From UHGV virus genome UHGV-0126638: a DNA stretch of 23,813 nt; one strand, written 5' to 3'. This document shows positions 1,744 to 20,689 of the stretch, one piece after another. The first letter of the stretch is position 1. Each line of letters opens with the position of its first letter. This DNA is from a virus. Under the pieces are notes generated by a model, which was not told the DNA's origin, made no database searches, and saw only the letters and a program-made list of their open reading frames with translations. A program made the position numbers and the translations under genes.

Positions 1744-1929
1744 AAAAAATGCCCTCCAATAGAGAGCATTTTTACTGTATGTATAACCAGTGTCAATGTA
1801 TGAAATCCTGCGACCATACATCTCACTGAAGCCATAATGAAGTTGGCTATTTTTTGCTATGTGAGTATGTGACTTTTGCGGTTAGCCTGCGACTCATTGT
1901 TATATTAGGCGCAGATATAAAAGCAAAAT

Positions 1930-2706: not shown

Positions 2707-2730
2707 GGTCACTCCAAGTGAACTTTTATC

Positions 2731-4957: not shown

Positions 4958-5184
4958 TGGCTGATGCAATGGATCTCGTACAGCAGCGCGTTGAAGAAGA
5001 ACGCCAGCGCCATATCCGTTCTGCCCGTGCCAAAACGCCGGGCGTGTCCCGCGTGCTTTGCATTGAGTGTGAAGCGCCAATTCCGCCAGCACGCCGCCGT
5101 GCCATTCCGGGTGTGCAGCTTTGCATTACCTGTCAGGAAATCGCAGAGCTGAAAGGCAAACATTACAACGGAGGTGCTGTATGA
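4957..5184 (+). CDS. TraR/DksA-family C4 zinc-finger protein
   Basis: 75 aa with the spacing CIECEAPIP...CITCQ (C-x2-C ... C-x2-C) typical of phage and plasmid TraR-like proteins; AGGAG Shine-Dalgarno; stop overlaps the dam start. Confidence 0.7.
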   Translation: MADAMDLVQQRVEEERQRHIRSARAKTPGVSRVLCIECEAPIPPARRRAIPGVQLCITCQEIAELKGKHYNGGAV

Positions 5185-6038
5185 GCACCATCCTGAAATG
5201 GGCGGGAAATAAAACTGCCATAATGTCAGAACTGAAAAAACATCTTCCTGCTGGCCCGCGACTGGTTGAACCTTTCGCGGGTTCCTGTGCTGTGATGATG
5301 GAGACGGATTATCCCAGTTATCTGGTTGCGGATATTAATCCTGATTTAATCAACCTCTATAAAAAGGTTGCCGCTGATTGTGAATCGTTTATATCTCGCG
5401 CCAGAGTTTTATTTGAGATCGCAAACAGGGAGGTGGCTTATTACAACATAAGGCAGGAGTTTAATTACTCAACTGAAATTACTGATTTCATGAAAGCGGT
5501 ATATTTCCTGTATCTCAATCGTCACGGTTACCGTGGTTTATGTCGCTATAACAAGAGCGGGCATTTCAATATTCCCTACGGTAATTATAAAAATCCGTAT
5601 TTCCCTGAAAAAGAAATTCGCGCATTTGCAGAGAAAGCCAAGCGGGCAACGTTTATCTGCGCGAGCTTTGATGAAACGCTGGCGATGCTGCAGGTGGGGG
5701 ATGTGGTGTATTGCGATCCGCCGTATGACGGTACGTTTTCCGGCTATCACACTGATGGTTTCACTGAAGATGACCAGTATCACCTGGCATCCGTTCTTGA
5801 ACATCGGTCATCAGAAGGACATCCGGTCATTGTTTCTAACAGTGACACATCCCTGATCCGTTCGCTGTATCGCAATTTTACTCACCACTACATCAAGGCA
5901 AAACGCAGCATCGGCGTAGCAGCTGGTGAGAGTAAATCTGCAACAGAAATCATCGCTGTTTCCGGGCCGCGCTGCTGGGTGGGATTTGATCCTTCGCGTG
6001 GAGTGGATAGTTCTGCCGTGTACGGAGTGCGTGCATGA
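5181..6038 (+). CDS. DNA adenine methyltransferase, Dam (GATC) family, phage-encoded
   Basis: Translation from ATG 5181 ([11 protein letters not shown]... FAGS ... DPPY) carries the N6-adenine MTase motifs: AdoMet-binding FxGxG-like region and catalytic DPPY. Start after GGAGG; ATGA overlap with gene A. Confidence 0.8.
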
Positions 6039-8449
6039 GCCATGCTGATATGAACAACTGCAGCGGCTTTAACGAGGTCGCCGCAGCATTCTCATGGAAC
6101 AGCCCGAAAAAGGCCATTAACCCTTATCTGGACCCGGCGGAAGTTGCGCCGGTTTCTGCGCTTTCAAACCTGATCACTCTGTACGCTGTCGATAACGAGC
6201 AGGAACAACTGCGCCGCGAGGCACTGAGTGATCAGGTCTGGGAGCGTTATTTCTTTAATGAATCCCGTGATCCTGTCCAGCGCGAAATGGAGCAGGATAA
6301 ACTTATTAGCCGGGCAAAGCTGGCGCATGAGCAGCAGCGTTTTAATCCAGATATGGTCATTCTGGCGGACGTCAATGCCCAGCCTTCCCATATCAGCAAG
6401 CCGCTGATGCAACGTATTGAATACTTCAGCAGCCTGGGCAGGCCAAAGGCTTATTCCCGCTATTTGCGTGAGACGATTAAGCCATGTCTGGAACGACTGG
6501 AGCATGTACGCGACTGTCAGCTATCCACTTCTTTTCGCTTTATGGCAAGCCATGAAGGGCTGGACGGCCTGCTGATCCTGCCTGAAATGAGTCAGGATCA
6601 GGTGAAGCGCCTGTCTACCCTTGTCGCCGCGCATATGAGCATGTGCCTTGATGCAGCTTGTGGTGATTTGTATGCCACCGATGACATTAAGCCAGAAGAA
6701 ATCCGCAAAACATGGGAAAAGGTGGCAGCGGAAACCCTGCGTCTGGATGTTATCCCGCCTGCGTTTGAGCAACTCCGTCGGAAAAGAAACCGCCGTAAAC
6801 CCGTGCCTTATGAACTCATTCCGGGTTCGCTGGCGCGTATGTTATGCGCCGACTGGTGGTATCGGAAATTATGGAAGATGCGTTGCGAATGGCGGGAAGA
6901 GCAGTTGCGTGCTGTTTGCCTGGTCAGCAAAAAAGCATCTCCCTATGTCAGCTATGAAGCCGTGATGCATAAACGTGAGCAGCGCCGTAAGTCGCTGGAG
7001 TTTTTCCGTTCTCATGAACTGGTGAACGAAGACGGCGACACGCTGGATATGGAAGACGTGGTAAACGCCAGCAGCAGCAACCCTGCACATCGCCGCAATG
7101 AGATGATGGCCTGTGTTAAAGGTCTGGAGCTTATCGCGGAAATGCGCGGTGACAGCGCCGTTTTCTACACCATCACCTGTCCGTCACGTTTCCATTCCAC
7201 GCTAAATAACGGCAGGCCCAACCCGACCTGGACAAATGCGACGGTAAGACAAAGCAGTGATTATCTGGTCGGTATGTTTGCTGCATTTCGTAAGGCGATG
7301 CACAAAGCCGGATTACGCTGGTATGGCGTGCGGGTGGCTGAGCCGCATCATGACGGTACAGTTCACTGGCACCTGTTGTGTTTTATGCGCAAAAAAGATC
7401 GCCGCGCCATTACTGCTTTGTTGCGTAAGTTTGCCATTCGTGAAGACCGCGAGGAGCTGGGTAATAACACGGAACCACGCTTTAAGTCTGAGCTGATAAA
7501 CCCGCGCAAAGGTACGCCAACAAGCTACATCGCGAAATACATCAGTAAGAACATTGACGGGCGTGGTCTGGCTGGCGAGATCAGCAAGGAAACGGGTAAA
7601 TCCCTGCGTGATAACGCTGAATACGTTAATGCCTGGGCGTCTCTGCATCGTGTTCAGCAATTCCGCTTCTTTGGCATTCCGGGGCGTCAGGCTTACCGTG
7701 AACTGCGATTGCTGGCTGGTCAGGCGGCAAGGCAACAGGGGGGCAAAAAAGCAGGTGCGCCGGTACTGGATAACCCGCGCCTTGATGCCATCCTGGCCGC
7801 TGCTGATGCTGGTTGTTTTGCCACCTACATCATGAAGCAGGGCGGCGTACTGGTTCCCCGCAAATATCACCTCATCAGAACCGCTTATGAAATCAACGAA
7901 GAGCCGACCGCCTATGGCGATCACGGTATTCGTATTTATGGCATCTGGTCACCCATTGCAGAGGGCAAGATCTGCACTCATGCGGTGAAGTGGAAAATGG
8001 TTCGTAAGGCCGTTGACATTCAGGAGGCGGCAGCCGACCAGGGCGCTTGCGCCCCTTGGACTCGTGGCAATAACTGTCCCCTTGCTGAAAATTTGAACCA
8101 ACAAGGGAAAGACAAATCAGCTGATGGGGATACCAGAACGGATATCACCCGCATGGATGACAAGGAGTTGCACGATTACCTGCACAGTATGAGCAAAAAA
8201 GAGCGCCGGGAACTGGCAGCAAGGTTACGCCTGGTTAAACCGAAACGGCGTAAAGACTACAAACAGCGAATTACAGATCATCAGCGACAGCAGCTCGTCT
8301 ATGAGCTGAAGTCCAGAGGATTTGATGGTAGCGAGAAAGAGGTCGATTTACTCCTTAGCGGCGGCAGTATTCCGTCAGGAGCAGGCCTGCGTATCTTCTA
8401 TCGGAACCAGCGTTTGCAGGAAGATGATAAGTGGCGGGATCTGTATTAA
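6035..8449 (+). CDS. A: P2 gpA-like replication initiation protein (rolling-circle endonuclease)
   Basis: 804-aa ORF downstream of the early genes; size and position match P2 A. An HxH-type motif (VHWHLL) and a Tyr-containing motif (YIAKYISK) fit a rolling-circle initiator. Confidence 0.8.
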
Positions 8450-8601: not shown

Positions 8602-8790
8602 ATGCAGGACTATTTTTTGGAGTCTTTGAAGCTCCAGCGCATTGATTTTTTTCTTAAGCTTGTAGCGGCTAGTGAGTGTAGTGATGAAGAGAAGGGGCTG
8701 GCTTTGCAGTGGGTTTCTGAACTGACAGATGAACTCATGGCAAAAATCAGAAGCCACGAATACAACCGCTCAATGGATGTCATCAGCTGA
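8602..8790 (+). CDS. Small protein, possible N-terminal part of a Tum-like antirepressor (62 aa)
   Basis: ATG 8602 with AGGAGG 4 nt upstream, directly downstream of the LexA box. Together with the DinI-like ORF it spans 433 nt, about the size of phage 186 tum (~146 aa) as I recall it. Confidence 0.5.
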   Translation: MQDYFLESLKLQRIDFFLKLVAASECSDEEKGLALQWVSELTDELMAKIRSHEYNRSMDVIS

Positions 8791-8800
8791 GGTGACTTTT

Positions 8801-9034
8801 ATGCGCATTGAAATAATGATCGATAAAGAGCAGAAGATTAGCCAGTCTACCCTGGACGCCCTTGAATCCGAGCTTTACCGCAATCTGCGCCCCCTATATC
8901 CCAAAACGGTAATTCGTATCCGTAAAGGTAGCTCTAACGGTGTGGAACTGACCGGACTGCAACTGGATGAAGAAAGAAAACAAGTGATGAAAATTATGCA
9001 GAAGGTGTGGGAAGACGACAGCTGGCTGCATTGA
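8801..9034 (+). CDS. DinI-family protein (Tum C-terminal-like)
   Basis: Translation from ATG 8801 (MRIEIMIDKEQKISQSTLDALESELYRNLRPLYPK...KIMQKVWEDDSWLH) aligns by eye along its whole length with E. coli DinI. GAGGTGA Shine-Dalgarno 5 nt upstream. Confidence 0.75.
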   Translation: MRIEIMIDKEQKISQSTLDALESELYRNLRPLYPKTVIRIRKGSSNGVELTGLQLDEERKQVMKIMQKVWEDDSWLH

Positions 9035-9087
9035 TTTTGTCAATAGATGCTTGTTTTTAATACTTAAAAAGGGTTACATATGAGTGA

Positions 9088-9121
9088 GAGGTGATGTCAA
9101 TCAGATATCACCTCGTTTTTT
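9088..9121 (+). terminator. Rho-independent terminator after the DinI-like gene
   Basis: Inverted repeat GAGGTGAT...ATCACCTC followed by GTTTTTT. It overlaps the 5' extension of ORF 9091..9825, so that extension is unlikely to be coding. Confidence 0.5.
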
Positions 9122-9147
9122 GTCAAGAAAAGAATAATAGGCTAAAA

Positions 9148-9825
9148 ATGAAAATTAACCATATTGCGTTACCTATATCTCTTGCTGTAATCCTAACTGG
9201 TTGCGTGCCTCATGCTTCTAACCGAAATATCACAGCTATTGAAGTGGTGAAGCCTGCTATTGGGCAAAGTGCTACAGCCTACATGGGCGACCCCATCATA
9301 ACATCTGCTACTGGATATAAAACGGACGTACTAGAGCTTGGTGCGGCTAATGGTGCGCTATCTTCTATCTCTGCAGGTACATATTGCAGCGAAGGGAATG
9401 GAATTTACCGCAATCATCATAATTCTCAAGCTGTTGCGCTAAAAAATATCTATGGACAAATCGGCACCTATGTTGATTATGTAAGTTACGATGCTGCAAA
9501 AAATGAGATATCACCACCAAACGGCACTTCTTATACAGCCTCAGAAATTTCTATCAAGCGTGTTCCTGATGGGCTGTGTCGAGTGAGTAACTCATTGGTT
9601 AAGACTATCGAATACAATGGAAATGCAGGCGGTGTAATGAAGTTTACCTATCGTGAGTTTGCAAACGATATGGCTCGTGCAGCGTTTACAACAGATTTTT
9701 CTGTAGATTCGAAGGGAAGTGATGTTATCGCTTACAAAGGAGCCAAGTTCAAAGTGAACAAGGCTGATAACTCGTCTATTTCCTATACAATTATTTCTGG
9801 CTTTGACAAGGCTGTCACGTTCTAG
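9148..9825 (+). CDS. Lipoprotein of unknown function (moron); possible superinfection-exclusion or surface protein
   Basis: Translation from ATG 9148: MKINHIALPISLAVILTGC, a signal peptide with lipobox LTGC. The mature ~205 aa is rich in S, T, G, N and Y (beta-rich appearance). No homolog recalled. Confidence 0.65.
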   Translation: MKINHIALPISLAVILTGCVPHASNRNITAIEVVKPAIGQSATAYMGDPIITSATGYKTDVLELGAANGALSSISAGTYCSEGNGIYRNHHNSQAVALKNIYGQIGTYVDYVSYDAAKNEISPPNGTSYTASEISIKRVPDGLCRVSNSLVKTIEYNGNAGGVMKFTYREFANDMARAAFTTDFSVDSKGSDVIAYKGAKFKVNKADNSSISYTIISGFDKAVTF

Positions 9826-9929
9826 ATTTCACGCTTGCTGAGTATGTTACGATTTTGCACATTCTGCATAAACGCGCATGTCTATGCTGCATGAGATCGC
9901 ATGATCGTTTGAGGATCTTTTGTGTTAAG

Positions 9930-9954
9930 GCCCGCCAGTTCTGGCGGGCTTTTG
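9930..9954 (+). terminator. Rho-independent terminator downstream of the lipoprotein gene
   Basis: Perfect 9-bp stem GCCCGCCAG / CTGGCGGGC around TT, followed by TTTTG. Confidence 0.55.
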
Positions 9955-9998
9955 CGTAGATCATGCAGGTGCATGAAAACCACTACATAAAGCGGGCA

Positions 9999-10017
9999 GG
10001 CGTGGCGGGGATACGAG
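9999..10017. other. cos-like site (candidate cohesive-end sequence) GGCGTGGCGGGGATACGAG
   Basis: The first 13 nt match the 19-nt cohesive ends of phage 186 (GGCGTGGCGGGGAAAGCAT) and 12 of them P2 (GGCGAGGCGGGGAAAGCAC), as I recall them; the last 6 nt diverge. It is followed by CGCGCGC, as at the P2 left end. Confidence 0.4.
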
Positions 10018-10084
10018 CGCGCGCAACGGGTTGTCATTCAAACTCCAATGCTATAAAACTGTGTAATACAAACAACTAAAGTAG

Positions 10085-11839
10085 GTGGCCTCAGTGGAAC
10101 TGCAAGCAAATGCTCGAACCTTAACAAACGTGTTATCTGTAAATAAAAAATATATAGTCCCTAGATTCCAAAGAGAATATTCTTGGGGGAAGGAACAAGT
10201 AAGTGAACTTTGGCATGATATAGTTTCCAATATTCATTACCAGGAGGATGGGCAGTATCAATATGATGAGTATTTCATCGGTGCTCTCGTTTTGGTCGGG
10301 CAGGAAACTAGCTCTGAGCTGATGATTGTAGATGGTCAACAACGTCTTACGACTCTTACTATATTGTTATCAGCATTATGTGATAAATTTAAGTTGATAA
10401 ATGAGTTGGCTGTAGCTCAATCAATATATAATAATTATATATCTGGTATGGATGACGATGGCAGACCTTTTTTTAAATTAGTTAATGAAACTCCTAAGCC
10501 ATACTTTCAAAACAACATTCAGCATATTGATAAGAGAAATGAAGGACCGGAGTCCCTTGAAGAAAGAAACTTGCAATCTTCATATAATGATTTAACTGAG
10601 TATCTTTCAGAAGATAATCTTTGCCAGACATTAGGAGTAGATAGAGAGAAATTTATCTACTTGGAAGCGTTGAAGGCTGTGCGGGATCAAGTTCTACGGT
10701 ATCTGAAAGTGATTTATATTACAGTTAATGATGAAGATGAAGCTTATACAATCTTTGAAACTCTGAATGCTAGGGGATTAAACTTAAGTTATGTAGATCT
10801 TATAAAAAACAAATTATTTAAGAAACTGAATGGCACACATCCTGATGATGATGCAAAAACTAAATGGAATAAAATTAGGCAAATAATTGCTAGTCGTAAT
10901 GGTGTCGGTTCTATCGAGACATTTATCCGTCATTGGTGGGTGTCAAAATATTCTTATGTAAGTAGTGACACTCTTTATAAAGCTTTTCTGGATAAGTGGA
11001 AAAAAGGCGACATTGATGCTTCAGCGTTCATTGATGAGCTACTTTCAGATGCCGAGATATATGTGAAAATATCATCGCCTACAGAACAGGATTTTCCTGA
11101 ACTGGAAATGAAACCAGTTTATCGAGGTTTGCAGGCATTAAGGCTGTTTAACATATCTCAGAATAAACCATTTTTGTTATCTTTATTTAAGGCAAGAGCA
11201 AGAGGAACGCTAAAACTTGTTGATATGAATAATGCAGTGCTGTCAATTGAACGCTTTCATTTTATGTTTAATGCTATTTGTTCATTGCGACCATCAGGTA
11301 TTGAAAGTGCGTATGCTAAAGCTGCTAGGGCTTTAGTGGATGAAGGTTCTACTAAAGCTAGTAATAGACAAGTAATAAAGTCTTTGCTTGAAATGTTGGT
11401 GAAGAGAAAACCAGACATTAATATGTTTGTTGAAAAGTTTGTTATGCTTAAATTTTCAAATCAAGAGTTGAAAAATAAAAGGTTGATTCAGTACATTTTT
11501 AATAGACTTGAGTTACATCACATGAAAACGGGGGAGTATATGCCTGATTCATTAACATTAGAGCATATTCAGCCTCAGAGTGTGGGGGATTCTGAAGTAT
11601 ATAGCATGATAGGAAATTTATTACCACTTTCAAAAGAATTAAATGAAAAAGCTGGAAATAAGTCTGTTGTGGATAAGCTTGAAATTTATAAACAATCACA
11701 ATATGCGCTAGTTAAAATTTTTATTGATGAATTTGAAAATAAATATCAAGGAGAATGGACGCCCGATCATATGAGGTCAAGAGCTGCTGAACTAAGTATT
11801 TTATCGTATAATTCAGTATGGAAATTGGGGCGTGAGTAA
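10085..11839 (+). CDS. DUF262 (ParB-like, DGQQR) plus DUF1524 (His-Me/HNH-like) protein; GmrSD/BrxU/SspE-type candidate modification-dependent nuclease
   Basis: 584-aa ORF (GTG start at 10085; alternative GTG at 10094 after AGGTGG). N-terminal FQREYSW and DGQQR at codons 83-87 (nt 10331-10345) are DUF262 hallmarks; C-terminal LEHIQPQS...GNLLPLSKELNEKAGNKS is DUF1524-like. The gene is markedly AT-rich compared with flanking phage genes. Confidence 0.75.
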   Translation: MASVELQANARTLTNVLSVNKKYIVPRFQREYSWGKEQVSELWHDIVSNIHYQEDGQYQYDEYFIGALVLVGQETSSELMIVDGQQRLTTLTILLSALCDKFKLINELAVAQSIYNNYISGMDDDGRPFFKLVNETPKPYFQNNIQHIDKRNEGPESLEERNLQSSYNDLTEYLSEDNLCQTLGVDREKFIYLEALKAVRDQVLRYLKVIYITVNDEDEAYTIFETLNARGLNLSYVDLIKNKLFKKLNGTHPDDDAKTKWNKIRQIIASRNGVGSIETFIRHWWVSKYSYVSSDTLYKAFLDKWKKGDIDASAFIDELLSDAEIYVKISSPTEQDFPELEMKPVYRGLQALRLFNISQNKPFLLSLFKARARGTLKLVDMNNAVLSIERFHFMFNAICSLRPSGIESAYAKAARALVDEGSTKASNRQVIKSLLEMLVKRKPDINMFVEKFVMLKFSNQELKNKRLIQYIFNRLELHHMKTGEYMPDSLTLEHIQPQSVGDSEVYSMIGNLLPLSKELNEKAGNKSVVDKLEIYKQSQYALVKIFIDEFENKYQGEWTPDHMRSRAAELSILSYNSVWKLGRE

Positions 11840-11866
11840 ATGCCGGGGGGGGGCCCAGCATATTTA

Positions 11867-12916
11867 TCAAAAAGAATCGTTTGTGAAATTTAGGGAGTAG
11901 GCATCAAAGCGTATTGCTTCTTCGCCTAGCCAATAGTTAAGTTCTTGTAGCTGTTTCTGCAGGGGCATCAGTTCGTTGCGGACAAAAACACGACTAGCCT
12001 TCTCCACATCACCAAAGCCCCCAACATTATTAGGCATTATCCCCATCATTTGCGGCGGCACACGATGCGCCGCCATCATGTCGTCCCGGCTCACGTTCTT
12101 GATATTCAGGAACTCATCCTTCGCCGCCACTTCTGACAACGGGATAATCTGAAGCCCATCCTTTTTGCCGTTAGGCGAGTACATAAACAGGTTACGGAAG
12201 TTACCAGGACCTTTGGCACTTTTCATTGCGTTGCGGAGGTTGTTCACATCCTCCTGGTTCTGCGCGGCGTCGGTCATGTACATGATGAAGCCCGCATGGC
12301 TGCCGTTGATGTAATACTTCCGGCGGAACAGCGTGGCGGACTCGTTGAGCAGGGCTGACGGAATGGCAGAAAGATAACCGGGCAGGCCGTAGATCTCCTG
12401 GTTGATGTCCGGCTCCATCAGATGAAAAATGCTGCCTTTCGTGAACTGATACGGCTGGGTTGTCATACCGTATTGCACAAACCAGTAGGTATCCAGGTCT
12501 AACCCGCGTCGGGTGTATTTTGCCAGAGCAGGCTCAAGGGCTATAACTTCACCGAAGCGGTTCGTGCGTTTCTCCAGGTAGGCGTTACCAAAAACCAGAT
12601 AGTCCTGTACAAAACGCGAAAAAGCCTGCTGGCTGAGCAGCGGGTGAGGGATGTAGGTGCTGGTCAGAATGTTGCACTTTACTGCAATCGGGGAACTATG
12701 ATGAACGGCAGCGCGGAAGGTGCGCGCCAGTCCGTCAAAGCTGACGGGCGGCTCATACCAGCGGTCCATCTGTACGCATTCCACATAATCCAGCAGTTCT
12801 CGGCGGTCCAGAACAGGAACGGGATCGCCGAAGCTGAATGCTTCGGCTGTAGTTTGACTTTTAAGCTGGATCTGTTTCGTCGCCGCAGCGCGGTTCTTCT
12901 TACTCTTTCCCATCAA
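11867..12916 (-). CDS. Q: Portal protein, P2 gpQ family
   Basis: 349 aa, leftward, overlapping the start of the terminase gene as in P2. N-terminus MMGKSKKNRAAATK... and size match P2 Q as I recall it. Confidence 0.88.
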   Translation of the reverse strand: MMGKSKKNRAAATKQIQLKSQTTAEAFSFGDPVPVLDRRELLDYVECVQMDRWYEPPVSFDGLARTFRAAVHHSSPIAVKCNILTSTYIPHPLLSQQAFSRFVQDYLVFGNAYLEKRTNRFGEVIALEPALAKYTRRGLDLDTYWFVQYGMTTQPYQFTKGSIFHLMEPDINQEIYGLPGYLSAIPSALLNESATLFRRKYYINGSHAGFIMYMTDAAQNQEDVNNLRNAMKSAKGPGNFRNLFMYSPNGKKDGLQIIPLSEVAAKDEFLNIKNVSRDDMMAAHRVPPQMMGIMPNNVGGFGDVEKASRVFVRNELMPLQKQLQELNYWLGEEAIRFDAYSLNFTNDSF

Positions 12917-14679
12917 AAAATCTCCACAATATTGCTGGTATTGGCGGATTCGCCCTGCAGCGGTTCGTTAAACAGTGCGTGCATCGTTGCCCAGGCCAGA
13001 TCGGCGTGGCTGGCTTCTTCGCTGCGGCTGGCTTCATAGGTCGGGCGGTTGCCACTGGCGGTGGTGGCGCGACGGATCGCCATAAAGGACTGCGCTATGT
13101 CGGTGTGTCCGGCGTCAAACTCCAGACGGCGGTGGCTGATAATGTCGTAGGCCTTGAGTACCAGGGCGTTTTTAACGTTGGGGTTGTAGACAAACTCCCG
13201 GACGGCAGGAAAAAACGCTTTCACGTTCTCGTAAACCCCGTGACCAACGCCGGTTGAGTCGATACCGATATAGGTCACGTTGTACTGTTCGGTCAGTTTT
13301 TTGATGGCGTCAGCCTGGGCGCGGAAGTCCATTCCGCGCCACTGGTGACGCTCAAGAATGCGGAACTTACCGCCCGGCACGACTGGCGGCGCCACCACCA
13401 CGCATCCGGCGCTGTCGCCGTTCTGCGTACCTTTCGCCGGGTCATATCCGATCCACACTTCGCGCCAGCCAAACGGGCGCAGGGCCAGTGCATGAAAGTC
13501 GGTCCAGACTTCCCAACTGTCCACCATGCACGCCTGCAGCTCGCTGAGCGGGAACACAGACGCGAGATCGTCCACGAACTCACACATCAGCAGGTTCTGG
13601 TATTCGTCCGGGCTGTACTCCATGCGCAACTGGTCGAGGTCGAACAGGTTACAGCCGCCGCGCACCGCATCTTCCACAGTGACTATCTGGCGGTACTGCC
13701 CGTCTGCGCACAGCAGGCCGGGGGCCAGATTGCTGTGGGACAGGTCGATGTCCACCTTATCGGCTTTGTTGCGCCCTCGGTTGAACAGCGCACCGGACCA
13801 GAACGGATAAGCACTGTGTGTCAGGCTGGATGGCGTGGAAAAATAGGTTTGTCGCCATTTTTTGTGAATAGCCATACCGGAAGCCACTTTGCGCAGCTCC
13901 TGGAATTTCGGTATCCAGAAATATTCATCCAGATACAGGTTGCCGTGGTAACTCTGGGCCGTGCGGGCATTGGTGCCGAGGAAGTACAGCGTGGCCCCGT
14001 TAGGAAGCACCATCGGATCGCCTTTCAGCTCCACCTCCACTTCTTTGGCGAAGTCGATGATGTACTGCTTAAAGACGTGGGCCTGAGCCTTGCTGGCGGA
14101 AAGGAAAATCTGGTTACGTCCGGTTAGCAGGGCGTCAATCAGGGCTTCACGGGCAAAATAGAAGGTCGCGCCGATCTGGCGTGACTTCAGCAGGTTGCGG
14201 ATGCGGTTGGTTTTTCCGGCTTCCCACCAGTGGCGCTGGTAGTTGAACATGGAGGAATGGAAGATTTCTTCCAGCTTCTCAATCTGTTCATCGGTGAAAA
14301 CGTTCTTTTCCGGCTGACGGCGCGGGCCTTTGTTGCGGTTGGCGACGTTAGGGTTTAAGTCGGCTTCGTTGCCGCCATTGTTAAACTTGCCGATCCGCGC
14401 ATGGCGCTCCGACTGGCGCGCCAGCAGGTCAATCTCTTTGAAATCTTTCCCTTCTTTGTGCTCCTTCATAATGAGCTGGCAGTAGCGTGCGGCGGTGGTG
14501 AGCTGCATCTGATCTAGCGGCCCATAGTCACCCCACTTGTCGCGTTTTTTCCAGCTGTGAACGGTTGCAACTTTCTCGCCCAGCATTTCAGCAATGCGGG
14601 CTACGCGGTATCCCTGAAAGTACAGCAGCATGGCCTGCCGACGGGGATCGAGATCTGCGGGTGTCAGTGTGGTGTTCAT
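12913..14679 (-). CDS. P: Terminase large (ATPase) subunit, P2 gpP family
   Basis: 588 aa, leftward, divergent from O as in P2. A Walker A-like motif (LLKSRQIGAT) is present; size is close to P2 gpP. Confidence 0.88.
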   Translation of the reverse strand: MNTTLTPADLDPRRQAMLLYFQGYRVARIAEMLGEKVATVHSWKKRDKWGDYGPLDQMQLTTAARYCQLIMKEHKEGKDFKEIDLLARQSERHARIGKFNNGGNEADLNPNVANRNKGPRRQPEKNVFTDEQIEKLEEIFHSSMFNYQRHWWEAGKTNRIRNLLKSRQIGATFYFAREALIDALLTGRNQIFLSASKAQAHVFKQYIIDFAKEVEVELKGDPMVLPNGATLYFLGTNARTAQSYHGNLYLDEYFWIPKFQELRKVASGMAIHKKWRQTYFSTPSSLTHSAYPFWSGALFNRGRNKADKVDIDLSHSNLAPGLLCADGQYRQIVTVEDAVRGGCNLFDLDQLRMEYSPDEYQNLLMCEFVDDLASVFPLSELQACMVDSWEVWTDFHALALRPFGWREVWIGYDPAKGTQNGDSAGCVVVAPPVVPGGKFRILERHQWRGMDFRAQADAIKKLTEQYNVTYIGIDSTGVGHGVYENVKAFFPAVREFVYNPNVKNALVLKAYDIISHRRLEFDAGHTDIAQSFMAIRRATTASGNRPTYEASRSEEASHADLAWATMHALFNEPLQGESANTSNIVEIF

Positions 14680-14725
14680 GGCACAAACCTACAGCCTTGA
14701 ATGAAGGCTTTCCCCGCCTGCGGTT

Positions 14726-14743
14726 TGTGTGGTTGTCGGTACA
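14726..14743. promoter_or_regulatory. TGT-N12-ACA dyad in the P/O divergent region; candidate Ogr-dependent late promoter element
   Basis: TGTGTGGTTGTCGGTACA seen directly. The dyad type and spacing match the activator site of P2 late promoters; it sits about 80 bp upstream of the O start codon. Confidence 0.4.
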
Positions 14744-14821
14744 AATACCGCGCATTGTTTCACTGCCCCCATCACCGCAACCATAAGGCTCCAGTAAGTT
14801 TTTTCTAACGGAGCACGGCTC

Positions 14822-15655
14822 ATGACAGTGAAAGCAAAGCGTTTTCGCATCGGGGTGGAAGGTGCCACCACCGACGGACGCGAAATCCAGCGTGAATGGC
14901 TGGAACAGATGGCAGCCAGCTACAACCCGGCGGTGTATACCGCGCTGATTAACCTTGAGCACATCAAGTCTTATCTGCCGGACAGCACCTTTAACCGCTA
15001 CGGCAAGGTGACGGCGCTGTTTGCTGAAGAAATCACGGAAGGTCCGCTGGCAGGCAAGATGGCGCTGTATGCCGACGTTGAGCCAACGGAGTCCCTGGTG
15101 GAACTGGTGAAAAAAGGCCAGAAATTATTCACCTCTATGGAAGTCAGCCCGAAGTTCGCTGATACGGGCAAAGCCTACCTGGTCGGCCTGGCTGCTACTG
15201 ATGACCCTGCCAGTCTGGGTACGGAAATGCTGACATTCAGCGCCAGTGCAGCCCATAACCCGCTGGCAAACCGCAAGCAGAATCCTGCCAATCTCTTTAC
15301 CGCTGCAGAGGAAACGGTGATCGAACTGGAAGAAATCCAGGACGACAAACCGTCCCTGTTTGCCCGCGTCACGGCGCTGTTTACCAAAAAAGAGCAGTCC
15401 GATGACGCCCGGTTCTCTGATGTGCATAAGGCCGTGGAGCTGGTCGCCACTGAGCAGCAGAACCTGAGTGCACGCACCGAAAAATCCCTGTCTGAGCAGG
15501 AAGAACGCCTGTCTGAGCTGGAGACTGCCCTGCAGGCACAGCAAACCGCCTTTAACGAACTGGTGGACAAGCTGAGTCATGAAGACAGTCGCCAGGACTA
15601 CCGCCAGCGTGCAACAGGCGGTAACGCCCCCGCTGACACTCTGACCAATTGCTGA
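14822..15655 (+). CDS. O: Capsid scaffolding protein, P2 gpO family
   Basis: 277 aa, first gene of the rightward late operon, with a C-terminal coiled-coil-like region; position and size match P2 O. Confidence 0.85.
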   Translation: MTVKAKRFRIGVEGATTDGREIQREWLEQMAASYNPAVYTALINLEHIKSYLPDSTFNRYGKVTALFAEEITEGPLAGKMALYADVEPTESLVELVKKGQKLFTSMEVSPKFADTGKAYLVGLAATDDPASLGTEMLTFSASAAHNPLANRKQNPANLFTAAEETVIELEEIQDDKPSLFARVTALFTKKEQSDDARFSDVHKAVELVATEQQNLSARTEKSLSEQEERLSELETALQAQQTAFNELVDKLSHEDSRQDYRQRATGGNAPADTLTNC

Positions 15656-15671
15656 TGGAGCACAAAACCCG

Positions 15672-16730
15672 ATGAAGAAGAATACCCGCTTTGCTTTTAA
15701 CGCTTACCTGCAGCAGCTGGCGCGTCTGAACGGTGTGGCAGTTGAAGAACTGTCCAGCAAGTTCACCGTGGAGCCGTCTGTGCAGCAGACGCTGGAAGAC
15801 CAGATCCAGCAGTCCGCCGCTTTCCTGACGCTGATTAACGTCACGCCAGTGACTGAGCAGTCCGGTCAGCTGCTGGGGCTGGGTGTTGGCAGCACCACTG
15901 CCGGAACCACTGACACCACCGCGAAAGAGCGTGAACCTGTCGATCCGACGCTGATGGTCGATGTGGAATATAAATGCGAGCAGACCAACTTTGACACGGT
16001 GCTGACCTACGCGAAGCTGGACCTGTGGGCGAAGTTTAAGGATTTCCAGGTGCGTATCCGTGACGCCATCGTGAAACGTCAGGCACTGGACCGCATCATG
16101 ATCGGCTTTAACGGCGTGAAGCGTGCGAAAACCTCCAACCGTAGTGAAAACCCGCTGCTGCAGGATGTGAACAAAGGCTGGCTGCAGAAAATCCGTGAGG
16201 ATGCACCGGATCACGTCATGGGCAGCACCACCACGGGCGGCGAAACCACACCGGGTGCGGTGAAAGTCGGGAAAGGTGGCGAATATGCCAACCTGGACGC
16301 TGTGGTGATGGATGCGGTCAATGAGCTTATCGACGTGGTCTACCAGGACGATGACGATCTGGTGGTGATTTGCGGTCGTGAACTGCTGTCTGACAAGTAT
16401 TTCCCGCTGGTCAACAAAGAGCAGGAAAACAGTGAAAAATTGGCAGCCGATATGATTATCAGTCAGAAACGCATGGGCGGTCTGCAGGCCGTGCGTGCGC
16501 CGTTCTTCCCGCCGAATGCGCTGCTGATCACCCGTCTGGATAACTTGTCCATCTACTGGCAGGAAGACACCCGCCGCCGTTCAGTTATCGACAACCCGAA
16601 ACGTGACCGGATTGAAAATTTTGAATCCGTTAACGAAGCCTACGTGGTTGAGGACTACCGCTGCGCCGCACTGGTGGAAAACATCCAGATTGGCGACTTC
16701 AGCGCCGCCGCAGCAGAAACCGGAGCGTAA
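15672..16730 (+). CDS. N: Major capsid protein, P2 gpN family
   Basis: 352 aa; the N-terminus MKKNTRFAFNAYLQQLARLNGV... and many internal segments (KFTVEPSV, GFNGVKRA, GKGGEYANLDA, ISQKRMG, NLSIYWQ, VVEDY) parallel P2 gpN as I recall it. Confidence 0.9.
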   Translation: MKKNTRFAFNAYLQQLARLNGVAVEELSSKFTVEPSVQQTLEDQIQQSAAFLTLINVTPVTEQSGQLLGLGVGSTTAGTTDTTAKEREPVDPTLMVDVEYKCEQTNFDTVLTYAKLDLWAKFKDFQVRIRDAIVKRQALDRIMIGFNGVKRAKTSNRSENPLLQDVNKGWLQKIREDAPDHVMGSTTTGGETTPGAVKVGKGGEYANLDAVVMDAVNELIDVVYQDDDDLVVICGRELLSDKYFPLVNKEQENSEKLAADMIISQKRMGGLQAVRAPFFPPNALLITRLDNLSIYWQEDTRRRSVIDNPKRDRIENFESVNEAYVVEDYRCAALVENIQIGDFSAAAAETGA

Positions 16731-16733
16731 TTC

Positions 16734-17384
16734 ATGAGCCTGAGTCCCGCACGGCAGCATCGCCTGCGCGTTCAGGCTGAACAGGCCGCTCGCGAGGGTG
16801 GCAGTGTTCGCCACGCGTCGGGCTATGACCTGATGCTGCTGCAACTGGCGGAAGACCGCCGCCGTCTCAAGGGCGTTCAGTCCACGGTCAAAAAAGCGGA
16901 AATCAAAGTGGAGCTGCTGCCGAAGTACGCCGCCTGGGCAGAGGGTGTCCTGGCTGCCGGAGGCGCTCAACAGGATGACGTGCTGATGTACGTGATGCTG
17001 TGGCGCATTGATGCCGGAGATTATGCCGGGGCGCTGGAGATCGGGCGTCATGCCCTGCGTCATGGCTGGGTGATGCCGCTGGGTAACCGCAACGTGCAGA
17101 CCGTGCTGGCAGAGGAAATGGCAGATGCAGCGCAGAGCGCAATGCTTGCCGCAACCGGCTTTGATGCCGATCTGTTGCTGCAGACGCTGGAGCTGACAGA
17201 CGGTCTGGATATGCCGGACCAGTCACGGGCGCGTCTGCATAAAGCGATTGGCGCTGTCCTGAGTGAAAGCAATCCGGCTTCCGCCCTTAATCATCTCAAC
17301 CATGCGTTACAGCTCGATCCCCGCTGTGGCGTGAAAAAAGACAAACAGCAGCTGGAGCGCAGACTGCGCAATGACAGCCGCTGA
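16734..17384 (+). CDS. M: Terminase small (endonuclease) subunit, P2 gpM family
   Basis: 216 aa immediately after N; conserved segments (LRHASGYDLML, GAQQDDVLMYVMLWRIDAGDYAGALEIGRHAL) resemble P2 gpM. Confidence 0.82.
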   Translation: MSLSPARQHRLRVQAEQAAREGGSVRHASGYDLMLLQLAEDRRRLKGVQSTVKKAEIKVELLPKYAAWAEGVLAAGGAQQDDVLMYVMLWRIDAGDYAGALEIGRHALRHGWVMPLGNRNVQTVLAEEMADAAQSAMLAATGFDADLLLQTLELTDGLDMPDQSRARLHKAIGAVLSESNPASALNHLNHALQLDPRCGVKKDKQQLERRLRNDSR

Positions 17385-17479
17385 CAGAACGTGCCCCCGC
17401 GCACGGGCGGCACGGGGTGGCGAAAGGCACAGCCACATCAAAACCCCGTCCACCGCCCTCTATCTCAGGAGAAAGCAGC

Positions 17480-17761
17480 ATGAAGTTTGTTGCGCCAGAA
17501 CAGGCACCGGAACAGGCGGAAATCATCAGAAATACGCCGTTCTGGCCTGATGTGGACCTGTCGGAGTTTCGCAGTGTCATGCGCACTGACGGCACGGTGA
17601 CGCAGCCGCGTTTAAAGCAGGTTGCGCTGTCGGCAATTTCGGAGGTTAACGCAGAGCTGTATGAGTTTCGCAGACGCCAGCAGATGCTGGGGTATGCGTC
17701 GCTGGCTGAGGTTCCGGCGGAACAGCTGGACGGGAAAAGTGAGCGCATTTCCGAAGCCTGA
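17480..17761 (+). pseudogene. L: Head completion protein gpL, C-terminally truncated
   Basis: Start at ATG 17480 with AGGAGAAAG upstream; NTPFWPDVDL...AELYEFR...LAEVPAEQLDG parallels the P2 gpL N-terminal half. The ORF ends at about 93 aa against about 169 aa for P2 gpL as I recall it. Confidence 0.6.
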
Positions 17762-17952
17762 CTGACAGTATTGATACCAGCACCCCAATGGGTCGTTTCT
17801 TTTTTCATGTCATGGGGGCCCTGGCTGAAATGGAACGCGAACTGATAGTTGAACGTACCATGGCAGGGCTGGCTGCAGCTCGTGCCAAAGGCAGAGTAGG
17901 TGGACGCCGTCCTAAGTTGACCACCGAACAGTGGGCACAGATTGGGCGTTTA
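17746..17952 (+). pseudogene. Internal fragment of a Hin/Gin/Pin-type serine DNA invertase gene (about 69 codons)
   Basis: The frame translating HFRSLTDSIDTSTPMGRFFFHVMGALAEMERELIVERTMAGLAAARAKGRVGGRRPKLTTEQWAQIGRL matches the central-to-C-terminal region of Hin-family invertases nearly residue for residue. The catalytic N-terminus and the C-terminal HTH are both absent. Confidence 0.7.
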
Positions 17953-19020
17953 TCCGGTTTACGTGCTGTTGCTGTGATGTTTATGAATCCTCTGGCGGTA
18001 CTGCGCGGTGGACTGGCCGCCGCAGGCACGGTGCTGCGAGTACTGGCATCTGGTCCACTGGCGATGCTGCGCGTTGCCCTGTATGCCATATCTGGTCTGT
18101 TAGGTGCTCTGCTCAGTCCGATAGGTCTTGTGGTTACTGCACTGGCGGGCGTGGCGCTGGTTGTTTGGAAATACTGGCAACCCATCACCGCATTTCTCGG
18201 TGGCGTGGTGGAAGGATTCAAAGCTGCGGCAGGTCCCATCAGTGCAGCGTTCGAACCGCTTAAGCCCGTGTTCCAGTGGATTGGCGACAAAGTGCAGGCG
18301 CTGTGGGGCTGGTTTACTGATCTGCTGACGCCCGTTAAGTCGACCTCTGCCGAACTGCAGAGCGCAGCGGCAATGGGGCGACGATTCGGGGAGGCACTGG
18401 CAGAAGGGCTGAATATGGTCATGCATCCGCTGGACTCCCTGAAATCCGGCGTTTCCTGGTTGCTGGAGAAACTCGGCATTGTCAGTAAAGAGGCTGCAAA
18501 GGCGAAACTGCCGGAAAGCGTGACGCGTCAGCAACCTGCGACGGTGAATGCAGACGGTAAAGTGATGATGCCATCGGGTGATTTTCCGTCATGGGGATAT
18601 GGCTTTGCGGGGATGTATGACAGCGGCGGCTATATCCCGCGCGGGCAGTTTGGCATCGTCGGTGAAAACGGGCCGGAAATTGTTAACGGCCCGGCAAACG
18701 TGACCAGCCGGAGAAATACAGCTGCACTGGCTGCCGTTGTCGCCGGAATGATGGGTGTTGCTGCCGCGCCAGCAGAGCTTCCACCGTTGCATCCTTTGGC
18801 GCTTCCCGCAAAAGGCGGTGAAGCGATGGTGAGTCGTGCAGCTACTGTGCCGCCCATTTACCGGATTGAAGCACCGACGCAGATCATCATCCAGACACAG
18901 CCAGGACAAAGTGCGCAGGATATTGCGCGGGAGGTGGCCCGCCAGCTTGATGAACGTGAACGCAGGCTGAAGGCAAAAGCCAGGAGTAACTACAGCGATC
19001 AGGGGGGATACGACGCATGA
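17953..19020 (+). pseudogene. T: C-terminal portion of the tail tape-measure gene (gpT-like), fused in frame to the invertase fragment
   Basis: Continues the same ORF (17788..19020) into Ala/Gly/Leu-rich sequence typical of tape-measure proteins and ends overlapping the gpU start. The N-terminal part of T and all upstream tail genes are absent. Confidence 0.6.
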
Positions 19021-19502
19021 TGATGGTGCTGGGATTGTACGTGTTTATGCTGCGCACCGTGCCGTATCAGGAGCTGCAGTATCAACGCAGCTGGCGACAT
19101 GCGGCAAACAGCCGGGTAAACCGACGTCCGTCCACGCAGTTTCTGGGACCGGACAACGACATGCTGACGCTTTCCGGTGTTCTTATGCCGGAGATAACAG
19201 GTGGCAGGCTGTCGTTGCTGGCACTGGAGCAGATGGCAGAACAGGGGAAAGCATGGCCCCTGATTGAAGGCAGTGGCACGATTTATGGCATGTATGTGAT
19301 TGAGGGACTGAATCAGACTAAAACGGAGTTTTTCCGCGACGGTATGCCGCGCCGGATTGAGTTCACCCTGTCGCTCAAACGGGTGGATGAATCCCTGTCC
19401 GATATATTCGGTGATCTCAGTGCGCAACTGAATAATCTGCAGGACACAGCAACGTCTGCCTTAAGCGATATCAGTAAAACGGTGGGAGGGCTGCTGTCAT
19501 GA
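19017..19502 (+). CDS. U: Tail protein, P2 gpU family
   Basis: 161 aa, between the tape-measure remnant and D; size and order as in P2. Confidence 0.8.
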   Translation: MMMVLGLYVFMLRTVPYQELQYQRSWRHAANSRVNRRPSTQFLGPDNDMLTLSGVLMPEITGGRLSLLALEQMAEQGKAWPLIEGSGTIYGMYVIEGLNQTKTEFFRDGMPRRIEFTLSLKRVDESLSDIFGDLSAQLNNLQDTATSALSDISKTVGGLLS

Positions 19503-20599: not shown

Positions 20600-20689
20600 T
20601 TCTTCGCAATGGAGAACTTTTAAGTTTGCAAAATGGAATAATGCGGTATCATTATTGTGAATTTAGCAAAAATGGGGAGAACTCGAAAA

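What the first reader, a model, noticed from the sequence alone, without database searches (positions are those of the whole stretch)
9929..11869. cos-like site lies upstream of the DUF262 gene, placing the cargo gene at the genome's left end; G9 tract at the convergent junction with Q
A sequence resembling the P2/186 cohesive end (GGCGTGGCGGGGA...) sits at 9999-10017, flanked by a terminator hairpin and by inverted GCATGATC / GATCATGC motifs (about 9893-9900 and 9957-9964). If this is the real cos, the DUF262 gene is inserted between cos and Q, a region that is only about 120 bp in P2 as I recall it. The DUF262 stop and the Q stop are separated by 27 bp containing a G9 homopolymer (11845-11853) and no clear terminator. 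This looks like a tightly packed insertion junction and a possible slipped-strand hotspot.
Basis: partly seen in the sequence, partly recalled or inferred. Interest (0 to 1): 0.5.

Follow-up and report, generated by a model that had tools for sequence, protein, structure and literature searches.

The report
Known cos-adjacent defence slot in P2-like prophage
This is a long-documented, catalogued hotspot for swapping defence genes, so the finding is correct but ordinary.

Summary
9999-10017 (GGCGTGGCGGGGATACGAG) is the only cos-like sequence in the window. It aligns without gaps, in register, with the experimentally defined cos of P2, P4 and 186 over about 150 bp, including the upstream TGCAT repeats.

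The gene at 10094-11839 is a GmrSD-like type IV restriction enzyme of the HEC-06 type, identical to WP_000422658.1. It fills the cos-to-Q interval, which is 167 bp in P2, 176 bp in 186 and 159-161 bp in "empty" relatives.

This arrangement is the norm for the clade, not an oddity:
- 73 of 75 close relatives carry cargo in this interval.
- The relatives' cargo falls into 44 distinct filled contents, all AT-rich and essentially all transcribed away from cos; the window's cassette is a further one.
- The slot was described by Dodd & Egan in 1996.
- It lies inside the gpA-gpQ defence hotspot of Rousset et al. 2022, whose supplementary tables list this exact protein.

The G9 tract is real and its length varies: G7, G8 or G9 in 15 otherwise near-identical assemblies. 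It lies after both stop codons. It forms the loop and 3 bp of an 8-bp hairpin downstream of Q, so length changes only resize the loop.

The prophage copy in the window is itself defective, with about 14 kb of tail and lysis genes deleted.

Novelty: already known. Interest: low.

The parts
9091..9825 (+). Occupant of the other variable slot (DinI to cos): a 244-aa hypothetical protein. It is a positional analogue of 186 orf97 but not a homologue.
   Evidence: ORF list. No Pfam, PADLOC or NCBIfam hit. No similarity to 186 Orf97. The DNA from 9000 to 10026, which includes this gene, is shared with Fels-2 at 94.5% identity. The slot is empty in 19/67 relatives and otherwise holds 206-4381 bp.
9876..10024 (.). 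Conserved cos block, from -123 to +7 relative to the 19-nt cohesive sequence. It is the only DNA between DinI and the 3' end of Q that is shared by nearly all relatives.
   Evidence: The left edge of homology is at 9876 in 62/75 relatives. The right edge is at 10022-10033, with the mode at 10024 in 38/75. The block aligns without gaps with the P2, P4 and 186 cos regions.
9885..9906 (+). Distal pair of TGCAT-type repeats (GCTGCATGAGATCGCATGATC). They sit at the same register (-112/-101) as GGTGCATGAGATTGCAT in P2, GGTGCATGGCTTTGCATG in P4 and GGTGCATTGTTTTGCATG in 186. Inferred to be a terminase recognition element.
   Evidence: The function is inferred from conservation only.
9927..9952 (+). 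GC-rich hairpin inside the cos spacer, followed by TTTTG. P4 and 186 have unrelated hairpins at the same position; P2 does not. Probably a terminator that insulates cos from rightward transcription of the DinI-side slot.
   Evidence: -23.6 kcal/mol, z -4.87; the 66-nt cos spacer containing the hairpin folds at z -2.9 in P4, -1.4 in 186, +0.3 in P2 and -3.7 in the window.
9959..9981 (+). Proximal TGCAT inverted pair plus AAAACC (GATCATGCAGGTGCATGAAAACC). This is the start of the 55-bp core shared with P2, P4 and 186.
9999..10017 (+). Predicted 19-nt cohesive-end sequence (cosN equivalent): GGCGTGGCGGGGATACGAG.
   Evidence: Unique in the window. Shares 15/19 positions with 186 and 14/19 with P2/P4. 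The identical sequence lies within the 59-bp feature annotated as the putative cos site in phage Cartapus.
10025..10093 (+). 5' end of the cassette. It holds a putative extended -10 promoter (TTGTCA 10031-10036; TGcTATAAA 10049-10057) and the Shine-Dalgarno AGGTGG at 10083-10088. The bases AACGGG (10026-10031) are still shared with 'empty' sites, so the breakpoint relative to an empty site is about 10031/10032.
   Evidence: Read from the sequence. Compared with the empty sites L017 and L061. The promoter is inference; the consensus scan did not list it.
10094..11839 (+). GmrSD-like type IV restriction enzyme of the HEC-06 type (DUF262 + DUF1524), 581 aa, identical to WP_000422658.1. It has DGQQR at residues 80-84 and the nuclease motif LEHIQP with E490/H491.
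   Evidence: Pfam GmrSD_N 1e-38 and GmrSD_C 1e-11. PADLOC HEC-06 over the full length, 3.8e-90. Identity to the RefSeq protein and the motifs. GC is about 34% against 54-57% in the head genes.
11840..11861 (-). Imperfect palindrome ATGCCG9CCCAGCAT. On the Q-sense strand it forms an 8-bp hairpin AUGCUGGG-C6-CCCGGCAU followed by UUUAC. It is a weak terminator-like element that takes the place of the canonical tQ.
   Evidence: -12.9 kcal/mol, z -1.85, with 6/200 shuffles as stable. The G7 version gives -12.7. Canonical tQ/tW is present in P2, 186 and the empty sites but absent here.
11845..11853 (+). G9 homopolymer, length-polymorphic between isolates (G7-G9). It is non-coding and forms the hairpin loop plus 3 stem pairs.
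11867..11985 (-). 3' end of the portal gene Q, which travels with the cassette. Homology with relatives carrying other cargo resumes only at 11887-11985, so the last roughly 7-40 codons of Q are cassette-linked. The C-terminus here is ...IRFDAYSLNFTNDSF*.
11867..12916 (-). Portal gene Q (186 W homologue), 349 aa.
   Evidence: Pfam Phage_portal. 62% identity to 186 W.

Best explanation
The window holds a 186/Fels-2-type P2-family prophage of E. coli, integrated between rcdA and rybB/ybjL.

**The cos site.** Its packaging site is a 149-bp conserved block at 9876-10024. The block contains distal and proximal TGCAT repeats, a spacer hairpin, and the 19-nt sequence GGCGTGGCGGGGATACGAG. The P/M terminase would cut this sequence with a stagger to give 5' cohesive ends.

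**Two variable slots.** The block is flanked on both sides by variable DNA.
- The DinI-to-cos slot corresponds to the position of P2 tin/old. Here it holds a 244-aa unknown gene.
Here it holds a single-gene cassette encoding a HEC-06-type GmrSD-like enzyme. This has a DUF262 NTPase domain with DGQQR and a DUF1524 His-Me nuclease with EH.

**Inferred function of the cassette.** The gene is most probably expressed from its own promoter in the lysogen and degrades modified DNA of superinfecting phages. This function is inferred; it was not tested here.

**Inferred mode of exchange.** Cassettes in this slot are most likely swapped between related prophages by homologous recombination. The short cos block serves as one arm, which gives a sharp boundary 7-14 nt past the cohesive end. 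The Q gene serves as the other arm, which gives diffuse boundaries 20-118 nt inside Q. As a result the last codons of Q and the post-Q terminator are replaced together with the cargo.

**The G tract.** The G9 run belongs to the cassette's terminal hairpin, which sits just downstream of the Q stop. It slips readily between G7, G8 and G9, but slippage only alters loop size, so the variation is effectively neutral.

The copy in the window is a deletion derivative that can no longer make tails or lyse the cell.
For: **cos identity**
- It is the unique match in the window.
- It aligns gap-free with the P2, P4 and 186 cos regions: 14-15/19 in the cohesive sequence and 40-43/55 in the core. TGCAT repeats and GCGCGC are in register.
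- The same sequence lies within the 59-bp feature annotated as the putative cos site in phage Cartapus.

**Slot behaviour**
- Of 80 IMG/VR loci with 93-97% identical Q, 75 have the cos block.
- The cos-to-Q gap is 159-161 bp, including a good terminator, in 2 loci. It is 518-3497 bp in the other 73, and the median over all 76 loci including the window is 1555 bp.
- The 76 loci, including the window, fall into 46 sequence clusters.
- Essentially all cargo ORFs are on the + strand, and cargo GC is 31-43%.
- Cargo domains are the usual defence set: GmrSD, retron RT, TIR, PIN, SLFN, SieB, AIPR, Cap4, DprA and AAA_13.
- The two slots assort independently. The identical DUF262 protein is paired with at least 8 different DinI-side contents.

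**Gene identity**. HEC-06 anti-phage activity and its dependence on the DGQQR and EH motifs were shown by Payne et al., bioRxiv 10.1101/2024.01.29.577857.

**Prior description of the slot**
- Dodd & Egan 1996 and Nakayama 1999, as cited in PMC5694545.
- Rousset 2022, PMC9122126, whose supplement lists WP_000422658.

**G tract**.

**Deletion**.
Against: - No physical ends have been determined for this phage group, so the exact cleavage positions rest on homology alone. The last six bases of the 19-mer (ATACGA versus AAAGCA) differ from P2 and 186.
- The cassette promoter and the terminator role of the G-tract hairpin are inferred. The consensus scans did not call either, and the hairpin is followed by only three U.
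- Some of the G7/G8/G9 variation could be homopolymer error in long-read assemblies. I could not see sequencing platforms or reads.
- The substrate specificity of this GmrSD-like enzyme is unknown. The closest solved structure matches only the N-terminal domain, at E 1e-12.
- Homologous recombination as the exchange mechanism is inferred from boundary patterns and was not demonstrated.
Confidence: 0.88

Rival explanations
1. The G tract is a contingency (phase-variation) switch. Slippage would change expression of the DUF262 gene or of Q, for example by altering termination or the stability of the 3' ends of the convergent transcripts.
For: Three tract lengths occur among sequences that are otherwise identical over 1.87 kb. 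The tract is part of the only hairpin between the two genes.
Against: The tract lies after both stop codons, so it cannot shift a reading frame or change promoter spacing. Stem stability is the same for G7 and G9, at -12.7 and -12.9 kcal/mol. Other cassettes in the same slot have ordinary terminators and no homopolymer.
Confidence: 0.05
2. The G7/G8/G9 differences are sequencing or assembly artefacts at a homopolymer, and there is no real polymorphism.
For: Homopolymers of 7-9 G are error-prone on long-read platforms. All three G7 calls come from complete or near-complete chromosomes, which are likely long-read assemblies.
Against: Both G8 and G9 occur in fragmented contigs that look like short-read draft or metagenome assemblies: L094, L100, L102 and L104 read G8, while L095 and L105 read G9.
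Confidence: 0.2
3. The cos-like block is a relic and the functional packaging site of this phage group lies elsewhere. Alternatively the group packages by a different mechanism, in which case the DUF262 gene is not at a genome end.
For: No experimental ends exist for this clade. The 3' third of the 19-mer differs from P2 and 186.
Against: The block is the only conserved island between two hypervariable slots in 75 relatives, which indicates strong purifying selection. No second cos-like sequence exists in the window. The terminase genes P and M are P2-type.
Confidence: 0.04

Closest known systems
Retron Ec67/Ec86 prophages: 186-related prophages in which retrons replace the DNA between cos and the terminator downstream of W (Dodd & Egan 1996, Virology 219:115; cited in PMC5694545)
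   Same: The slot is the same (cos to the portal gene of a 186-type prophage) and so is the replacement logic. Retron reverse transcriptases are among the alternative cargos I found in relatives.
   Different: The cargo here is a GmrSD-like nuclease. The replacement also removes the terminator and the last codons of Q. I could not read the 1996 paper itself.
P2 gpA-gpQ defence hotspot next to cos (Rousset et al. 2022, PMC9122126; also PMC13586616)
   Same: The locus definition is the same, as are the extreme diversity and the enrichment for defence genes. The exact protein WP_000422658 (DUF262/DUF1524) is listed in their supplementary table of hotspot contents.
   Different: Those studies treat gpA-gpQ as one hotspot. 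Here it resolves into two independently assorting slots separated by a 149-bp cos block. P2's own tin and old sit in the other slot, on the right-end side of cos.
HEC-06, BrxU, GmrSD and SspE: GmrSD-like type IV restriction enzymes
   Same: The architecture is DUF262 + linker + DUF1524, with the DGQQR motif and the (E/D)H nuclease motif. It matches the HEC-06 HMM over its full length.
   Different: Similarity to proteins with solved structures is weak and confined to the N-terminal domain, at E 1e-12 or worse. The target modification is unknown and activity has not been tested for this allele.
Fels-2 (STM2723.1), phage Cartapus (DUF4145), Klebsiella phage 4LV2017 (retron St85) and ST512-KPC3phi13.2 (AIPR/Abi)
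   Same: Reference phages of the same clade with the same cos block and a different cargo between cos and Q.
   Different: Only the cargo differs.
Homopolymeric contingency loci (phase-variable genes of Neisseria, Haemophilus and Campylobacter)
   Same: A poly-G tract whose length differs between otherwise identical isolates.
   Different: The tract lies in neither a coding region nor a promoter spacer, so no on/off consequence is expected.

Membership tests
P2-family cos site | A 19-nt cohesive-end sequence homologous to GGCG(A/T)GGCGGGGAAAGCA(C/T) | tested here: met
   15/19 identical to 186 and 14/19 to P2/P4. The first 13 nt are identical to 186. The sequence is unique in the window.
P2-family cos site | The 55-bp core shared by P2 and P4 (Ziermann & Calendar 1990, as cited in PMC5694545), plus the upstream conserved elements | tested here: met
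   The window shares 40-43 of 55 positions (-36..+19) with P2, P4 and 186; those three share 44-48 of 55 with each other. The distal TGCAT pair at -112/-101 and GCGCGC at +2..+7 are in register without gaps.
P2-family cos site | Position between the replication/accessory region and the Q-P late operon of a phage with P2-type terminase | tested here: met
   The gene order is A, DinI, cos, Q, P, O, N, M, with Pfam assignments.
P2-family cos site | Staggered cleavage by terminase that gives 5' 19-nt overhangs on virion DNA | not testable with these tools
   This needs virion DNA end mapping. No phage record in the collection starts or ends at this sequence.
P2-like cos-proximal defence hotspot (Dodd & Egan 1996; Rousset 2022) | Location between gpA and gpQ, adjacent to cos | tested here: met
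P2-like cos-proximal defence hotspot (Dodd & Egan 1996; Rousset 2022) | Many unrelated contents at the same position in closely related phages, enriched in defence genes | tested here: met
   46 content clusters among 76 loci, including the window. Defence domains were found by Pfam and PADLOC.
P2-like cos-proximal defence hotspot (Dodd & Egan 1996; Rousset 2022) | This occupant is already recorded in the published catalogue | tested here: met
   WP_000422658 appears as 'DUF262/DUF1524' in supplementary file 6 of PMC9122126. The window protein is identical to it.
GmrSD-like type IV restriction enzymes (HEC-06 subgroup) | N-terminal DUF262 (GmrSD_N) domain with the DGQQR motif | tested here: met
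   PF03235 at 1e-38. DGQQR is at residues 80-84.
GmrSD-like type IV restriction enzymes (HEC-06 subgroup) | C-terminal DUF1524 (GmrSD_C) His-Me nuclease with the (D/E)H...N motif | tested here: met
   PF07510 at 1.2e-11. The motif reads LEHIQP...GNLLPLSKELNEKAGNKS.
GmrSD-like type IV restriction enzymes (HEC-06 subgroup) | Full-length match to the HEC-06 profile | tested here: met
   PDLC04154 at 3.8e-90, covering residues 1-581 against profile positions 1-566 of 569.
GmrSD-like type IV restriction enzymes (HEC-06 subgroup) | Modification-dependent DNA cleavage and protection against phage | not testable with these tools
   Shown for a HEC-06 representative by Payne et al., not for this allele.
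Phase-variable (contingency) homopolymer | Tract length differs between closely related isolates | tested here: met
   G7 in 3, G8 in 7 and G9 in 5 assemblies, with 0-3 substitutions in the surrounding 1.87 kb. A platform artefact is not fully excluded.
Phase-variable (contingency) homopolymer | The tract lies in a reading frame or promoter, so that slippage switches a gene on or off | tested here: not met
   The tract is at 11845-11853, between the two stop codons at 11837-11839 and 11867-11869.
Rho-independent terminator (at the G-tract hairpin) | A GC-rich stem followed by a run of U | tested here: inconclusive
   There is an 8-bp stem on the Q strand (-12.9 kcal/mol, z -1.85), but only UUU follows it. 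The consensus scan did not call it.

The most novel reading that the evidence does not exclude
The hotspot next to cos is really two independently assorting slots on either side of a minimal 149-bp cos block. The cos-to-Q slot has a strict polarity: essentially all cargo reads away from cos. It has a sharp boundary 7-14 nt from the terminase cut site, and the portal protein's C-terminal tail is transferred along with the cargo.

This pattern could mean that terminase-generated DNA ends at cos are the recombinogenic entry points that drive cassette exchange. [quoted passage not shown] It could also mean that variation in the portal tail is not neutral.

None of this is shown here. The pattern is equally compatible with ordinary homologous recombination plus purifying selection on cos and Q.
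Probability: 0.15. Interest if true: 0.45.

Novelty: already known. Interest (0 to 1): 0.15.

Why it matters
It matters little as a discovery. The slot, its role as a reservoir of anti-phage genes and even this exact protein at this locus are all published.

The analysis has practical value in three ways:
- It pins down the cos block (9876-10024) and the cassette boundaries for this Fels-2/186-like clade.
- It shows that the published gpA-gpQ hotspot consists of two slots split by cos.
- It documents a harmless but real-looking homopolymer polymorphism that could confuse variant calling or assembly comparison.

Tried and rejected
- **Anchor-based cargo extraction.** A nucleotide anchor inside the 3' end of Q captured only 22 of the 80 relative loci, because that part of Q is itself variable. 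I replaced it with tblastn-based coordinates.
- **Homology to 186 Orf97.** I tested the idea that the 244-aa gene upstream of cos is the 186 orf97 homologue. There is no similarity.
- **NCBIfam.** No hit for either cargo protein.
- **Consensus scans.** The promoter/terminator scan called neither the 9927-9952 hairpin, nor the G-tract hairpin, nor a cassette promoter. These therefore rest on folding and on reading the sequence.
- **Pattern scans for the G-tract junction.** The genome-contig scan found nothing. The metagenome scan found only 2 copies.
- **Chi sites.** I looked for these as a hint of RecBCD-driven exchange near cos. There are none in the prophage; the only one is in ybjL.
- **Dodd & Egan 1996.** The paper is not held, so it is cited second-hand through PMC5694545.
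- **Phage records beginning at the predicted end.** I searched for these as indirect evidence of mapped termini. None begins or ends at the predicted 19-mer; Cartapus starts 32 nt upstream of it, and the other matches are internal to their records.
- **Rfam and tRNA scans.** Nothing was found in the finding's range.


Full report
**Context**

The window is E. coli chromosome carrying a P2-family prophage of the 186/Fels-2 type. The prophage lies between rcdA (20-586) and rybB/ybjL (20986-21064 and 21144-22829). Its gene order is:
- integrase, 691-1821, minus strand
- CI repressor, 2137-2712, minus strand
- Dam methylase, 5121-6038
- replication protein A, 6035-8449
- DinI/Tum-like, 8729-9034
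- a 244-aa unknown gene, 9091-9825
- the region of the finding
- portal Q, 11867-12916, minus strand
- terminase P, 12913-14679, minus strand
- O, N and M, 14822-17384

**Checking the observation**

- GGCGTGGCGGGGATACGAG is at exactly 9999-10017. It is the only match in the window at up to three mismatches, with none in shuffled sequence.
- The hairpin AAGGCCCGCCAG/CTGGCGGGCTTT is at 9927-9952 (-23.6 kcal/mol, z -4.9).
- The G9 run is at 11845-11853, and the two stop codons are 27 bp apart.
The annotated records give 167 bp for P2 and 176 bp for 186.

**Is it cos?**

I joined the right and left ends of the P2, P4 and 186 records and compared them with the window. All four sequences align without a single gap from -130 to about +27 relative to the cohesive sequence.
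- The 19-mer matches 186 at 15/19 positions and P2/P4 at 14/19.
- Across the 55 bp from -36 to +19, the window shares 40-43 positions with the three references. The references share 44-48 with each other.
- The same register holds a distal pair of TGCAT repeats at -112/-101, a proximal TGCAT-AAAACC at -30, and GCGCGC just after the cohesive sequence.

They are presumably terminase recognition sites, but that is an inference. Phage Cartapus, a close relative, has the identical sequence within a 59-bp feature annotated as its putative cos site. No physical ends are available for this clade, so the exact cut positions remain homology-based.

**What the gene is**

The ORF most likely starts at GTG 10094, with AGGTGG five bases upstream. 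It encodes 581 aa identical to RefSeq WP_000422658.1.
- It has GmrSD_N (1e-38) and GmrSD_C (1e-11) domains.
- It has DGQQR at residues 80-84 and LEHIQP (E490/H491).
- It matches the PADLOC HEC-06 profile over its full length (3.8e-90).

HEC-06 is a GmrSD-like single-protein defence. Its anti-phage activity, and its dependence on the DGQQR and EH motifs, were shown experimentally by Payne et al. (bioRxiv 10.1101/2024.01.29.577857). Solved structures match only the N-terminal domain (best hit E 1e-12). The gene has about 34% G+C against 54-57% in the neighbouring head genes, as expected for acquired cargo.

**Is cargo between cos and Q unusual?**

It is not. I fetched 80 IMG/VR loci whose Q is 93-97% identical to the window's. 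I located cos, DinI and Q in each.
- 75 loci have the cos block.
- In two of them (L017, L061) the cos-to-Q gap is 159-161 bp and contains a good terminator. This is the 'empty' state, like P2 and 186.
- In the other 73 the gap is 518-3497 bp. The median over all 76 loci, counting the window, is 1555 bp.
- The 76 loci, counting the window, fall into 46 sequence clusters.
- Essentially every cargo ORF is on the same strand, reading away from cos and converging on Q. Cargo G+C is 31-43%.
- Their domains are the familiar defence repertoire: GmrSD (4 proteins, one of them 55% identical to the window's), retron reverse transcriptases (4), TIR, PIN, Schlafen, SieB, AIPR, Cap4 nuclease, DprA, AAA_13 and others.
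- Reference phages show the same layout: Fels-2 has a 565-aa unknown gene, Cartapus DUF4145, 4LV2017 retron St85, and ST512-KPC3phi13.2 AIPR/Abi.

**Boundaries**

Homology between the window and relatives with other cargo defines a conserved block. Its left edge is at 9876 in 62/75 loci. Its right edge is at 10022-10033, with the mode at 10024 in 38/75. Compared with an empty site, the window still shares AACGGG (10026-10031), so the breakpoint is about 14 nt past the cohesive sequence.

On the other side, homology resumes only at 11887-11985, which is 20-118 nt inside Q. The last roughly 7-40 codons of Q and the canonical post-Q terminator are therefore replaced together with the cargo.

The DNA on the A side of the block is also variable. 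The DinI-to-cos interval is empty (77-78 bp) in 19/67 loci and holds 206-4381 bp in the rest. It assorts independently of the cos-to-Q content. The identical DUF262 protein is found with at least eight different DinI-side contents.

The published 'gpA-gpQ hotspot' is therefore two slots separated by a minimal 149-bp cos block in this clade. P2's tin and old occupy the other slot.

**The G tract**

The same cassette occurs in six complete E. coli genomes at 99.3-99.5% identity over the 2.1-kb query. Its protein is present in 1494 blocks of the assembly collection.

I compared fifteen independent assemblies: the window, five of those genomes, seven further assemblies from the exact-protein look-up and two metagenome contigs. 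Among them the tract is G7 in 3, G8 in 7 and G9 in 5. The surrounding 1.87 kb differs by only 0-3 substitutions. All three lengths occur among copies with zero substitutions. Both G8 and G9 occur in fragmented contigs that look like short-read assemblies, so the polymorphism is probably real. All three G7 calls come from chromosome-scale contigs, so some platform error cannot be excluded.

The tract lies after both stop codons. On the Q-sense strand it forms the loop and three pairs of an 8-bp hairpin, AUGCUGGG-Cn-CCCGGCAU, followed by UUUAC. The hairpin folds at -12.9 kcal/mol with z -1.85 (6 of 200 shuffles as stable), and the G7 version at -12.7. It may be a weak substitute for tQ. Slippage only changes the loop from 4 to 6 nt. 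Nothing supports a switch function.

**Prior knowledge**

[quoted passage not shown] - Rousset et al. 2022 analysed the cos-proximal gpA-gpQ locus in 18,150 E. coli occurrences and found 1,650 arrangements. Their supplementary table lists WP_000422658 as 'DUF262/DUF1524' at this locus.
- A 2026 study extends this to Klebsiella and Salmonella.

The finding is therefore correct but already known.

**State of this copy**

The window aligns with the intact MB51 prophage over 9876-17749 and again over 18898-23813. About 14 kb of MB51 sequence in between is missing, running from mid-L to the tape-measure gene T. In its place the window has a fragment of a DNA invertase gene (about 17750-17950) and the C-terminal part of T from a different variant. 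This copy cannot make tails or lyse the cell. It retains cos, the head genes and the defence gene.

**Mechanism, and what is shown versus inferred**

Shown:
- sequence homology of cos
- the domain and motif content of the gene
- the diversity, polarity and boundaries of the slot
- the independence of the two slots
- the tract polymorphism and the hairpin geometry

Inferred:
- terminase cleavage at 9999-10017
- a cassette promoter (TTGTCA 10031-10036, TGcTATAAA 10049-10057)
- expression of the gene in the lysogen
- restriction of modified phage DNA
- exchange by homologous recombination using the cos block and Q as arms
- neutrality of the tract

Noticed in passing
window 17481-19020: The prophage is a deletion derivative. 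Gene L is truncated at about 17749. A fragment of a Hin/Gin-type DNA invertase gene follows (about 17750-17950), fused in frame (ORF 17788-19020) to the C-terminal part of the tape-measure gene T. About 14 kb present in the intact relative in E. coli MB51 is missing, covering lysis, baseplate, tail fibre, sheath and tube genes.
   Followed up: partly
window 9876-10024 with flanks 9035-9875 and 10025-11866; loci L013-L092: The published gpA-gpQ hotspot resolves into two independently assorting variable slots on either side of a 149-bp cos block. Genes in the DinI-side slot lie on either strand. Cargo in the cos-to-Q slot reads almost exclusively away from cos.
   Followed up: yes
window 11867-11985 (minus strand): The C-terminal 7-40 codons of the portal protein Q differ between relatives and co-vary with the cargo cassette. 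Examples are ...SLNFTNDSF* here, ...DLGLKSKRG* at empty sites and ...SLDIAP* with another cargo. I do not know whether the portal tail has any function.
   Followed up: partly
window 9927-9952; P4 and 186 cos spacers: A strong GC-rich hairpin sits at the same position (about -72 to -47) inside the cos spacer of the window, P4 and 186. The sequences are unrelated, and P2 has no such hairpin. It could be an insulating terminator or a structural element of cos.
   Followed up: partly
window 20986-21064 (minus strand): The sRNA gene rybB (Rfam RF00110, 105 bits) lies just beyond the right end of the prophage, next to ogr and D. The prophage may therefore use the rybB region as its attachment site.
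   Followed up: no
window 5121-6038: The prophage encodes its own D12-class N6-adenine (Dam-type) methyltransferase together with a modification-dependent GmrSD-like nuclease. Compatibility between the two is presumably required, but I did not examine it.
   Followed up: no
L008 3626-5302 (E. coli MB51 relative): The intact relative carries an extra 'SNIPE associated domain' gene between the integrase and CI genes that the window lacks. This is another variable accessory position in these prophages.
   Followed up: no
L008-L012, about 15 bp upstream of the DUF262 gene (e.g. L008 12016-12204): RefSeq annotates a 189-bp 'hypothetical protein, internal stop' pseudogene directly across the cos block in all five fetched E. 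coli genomes. This is almost certainly an annotation artefact over the non-coding cos site.
   Followed up: no
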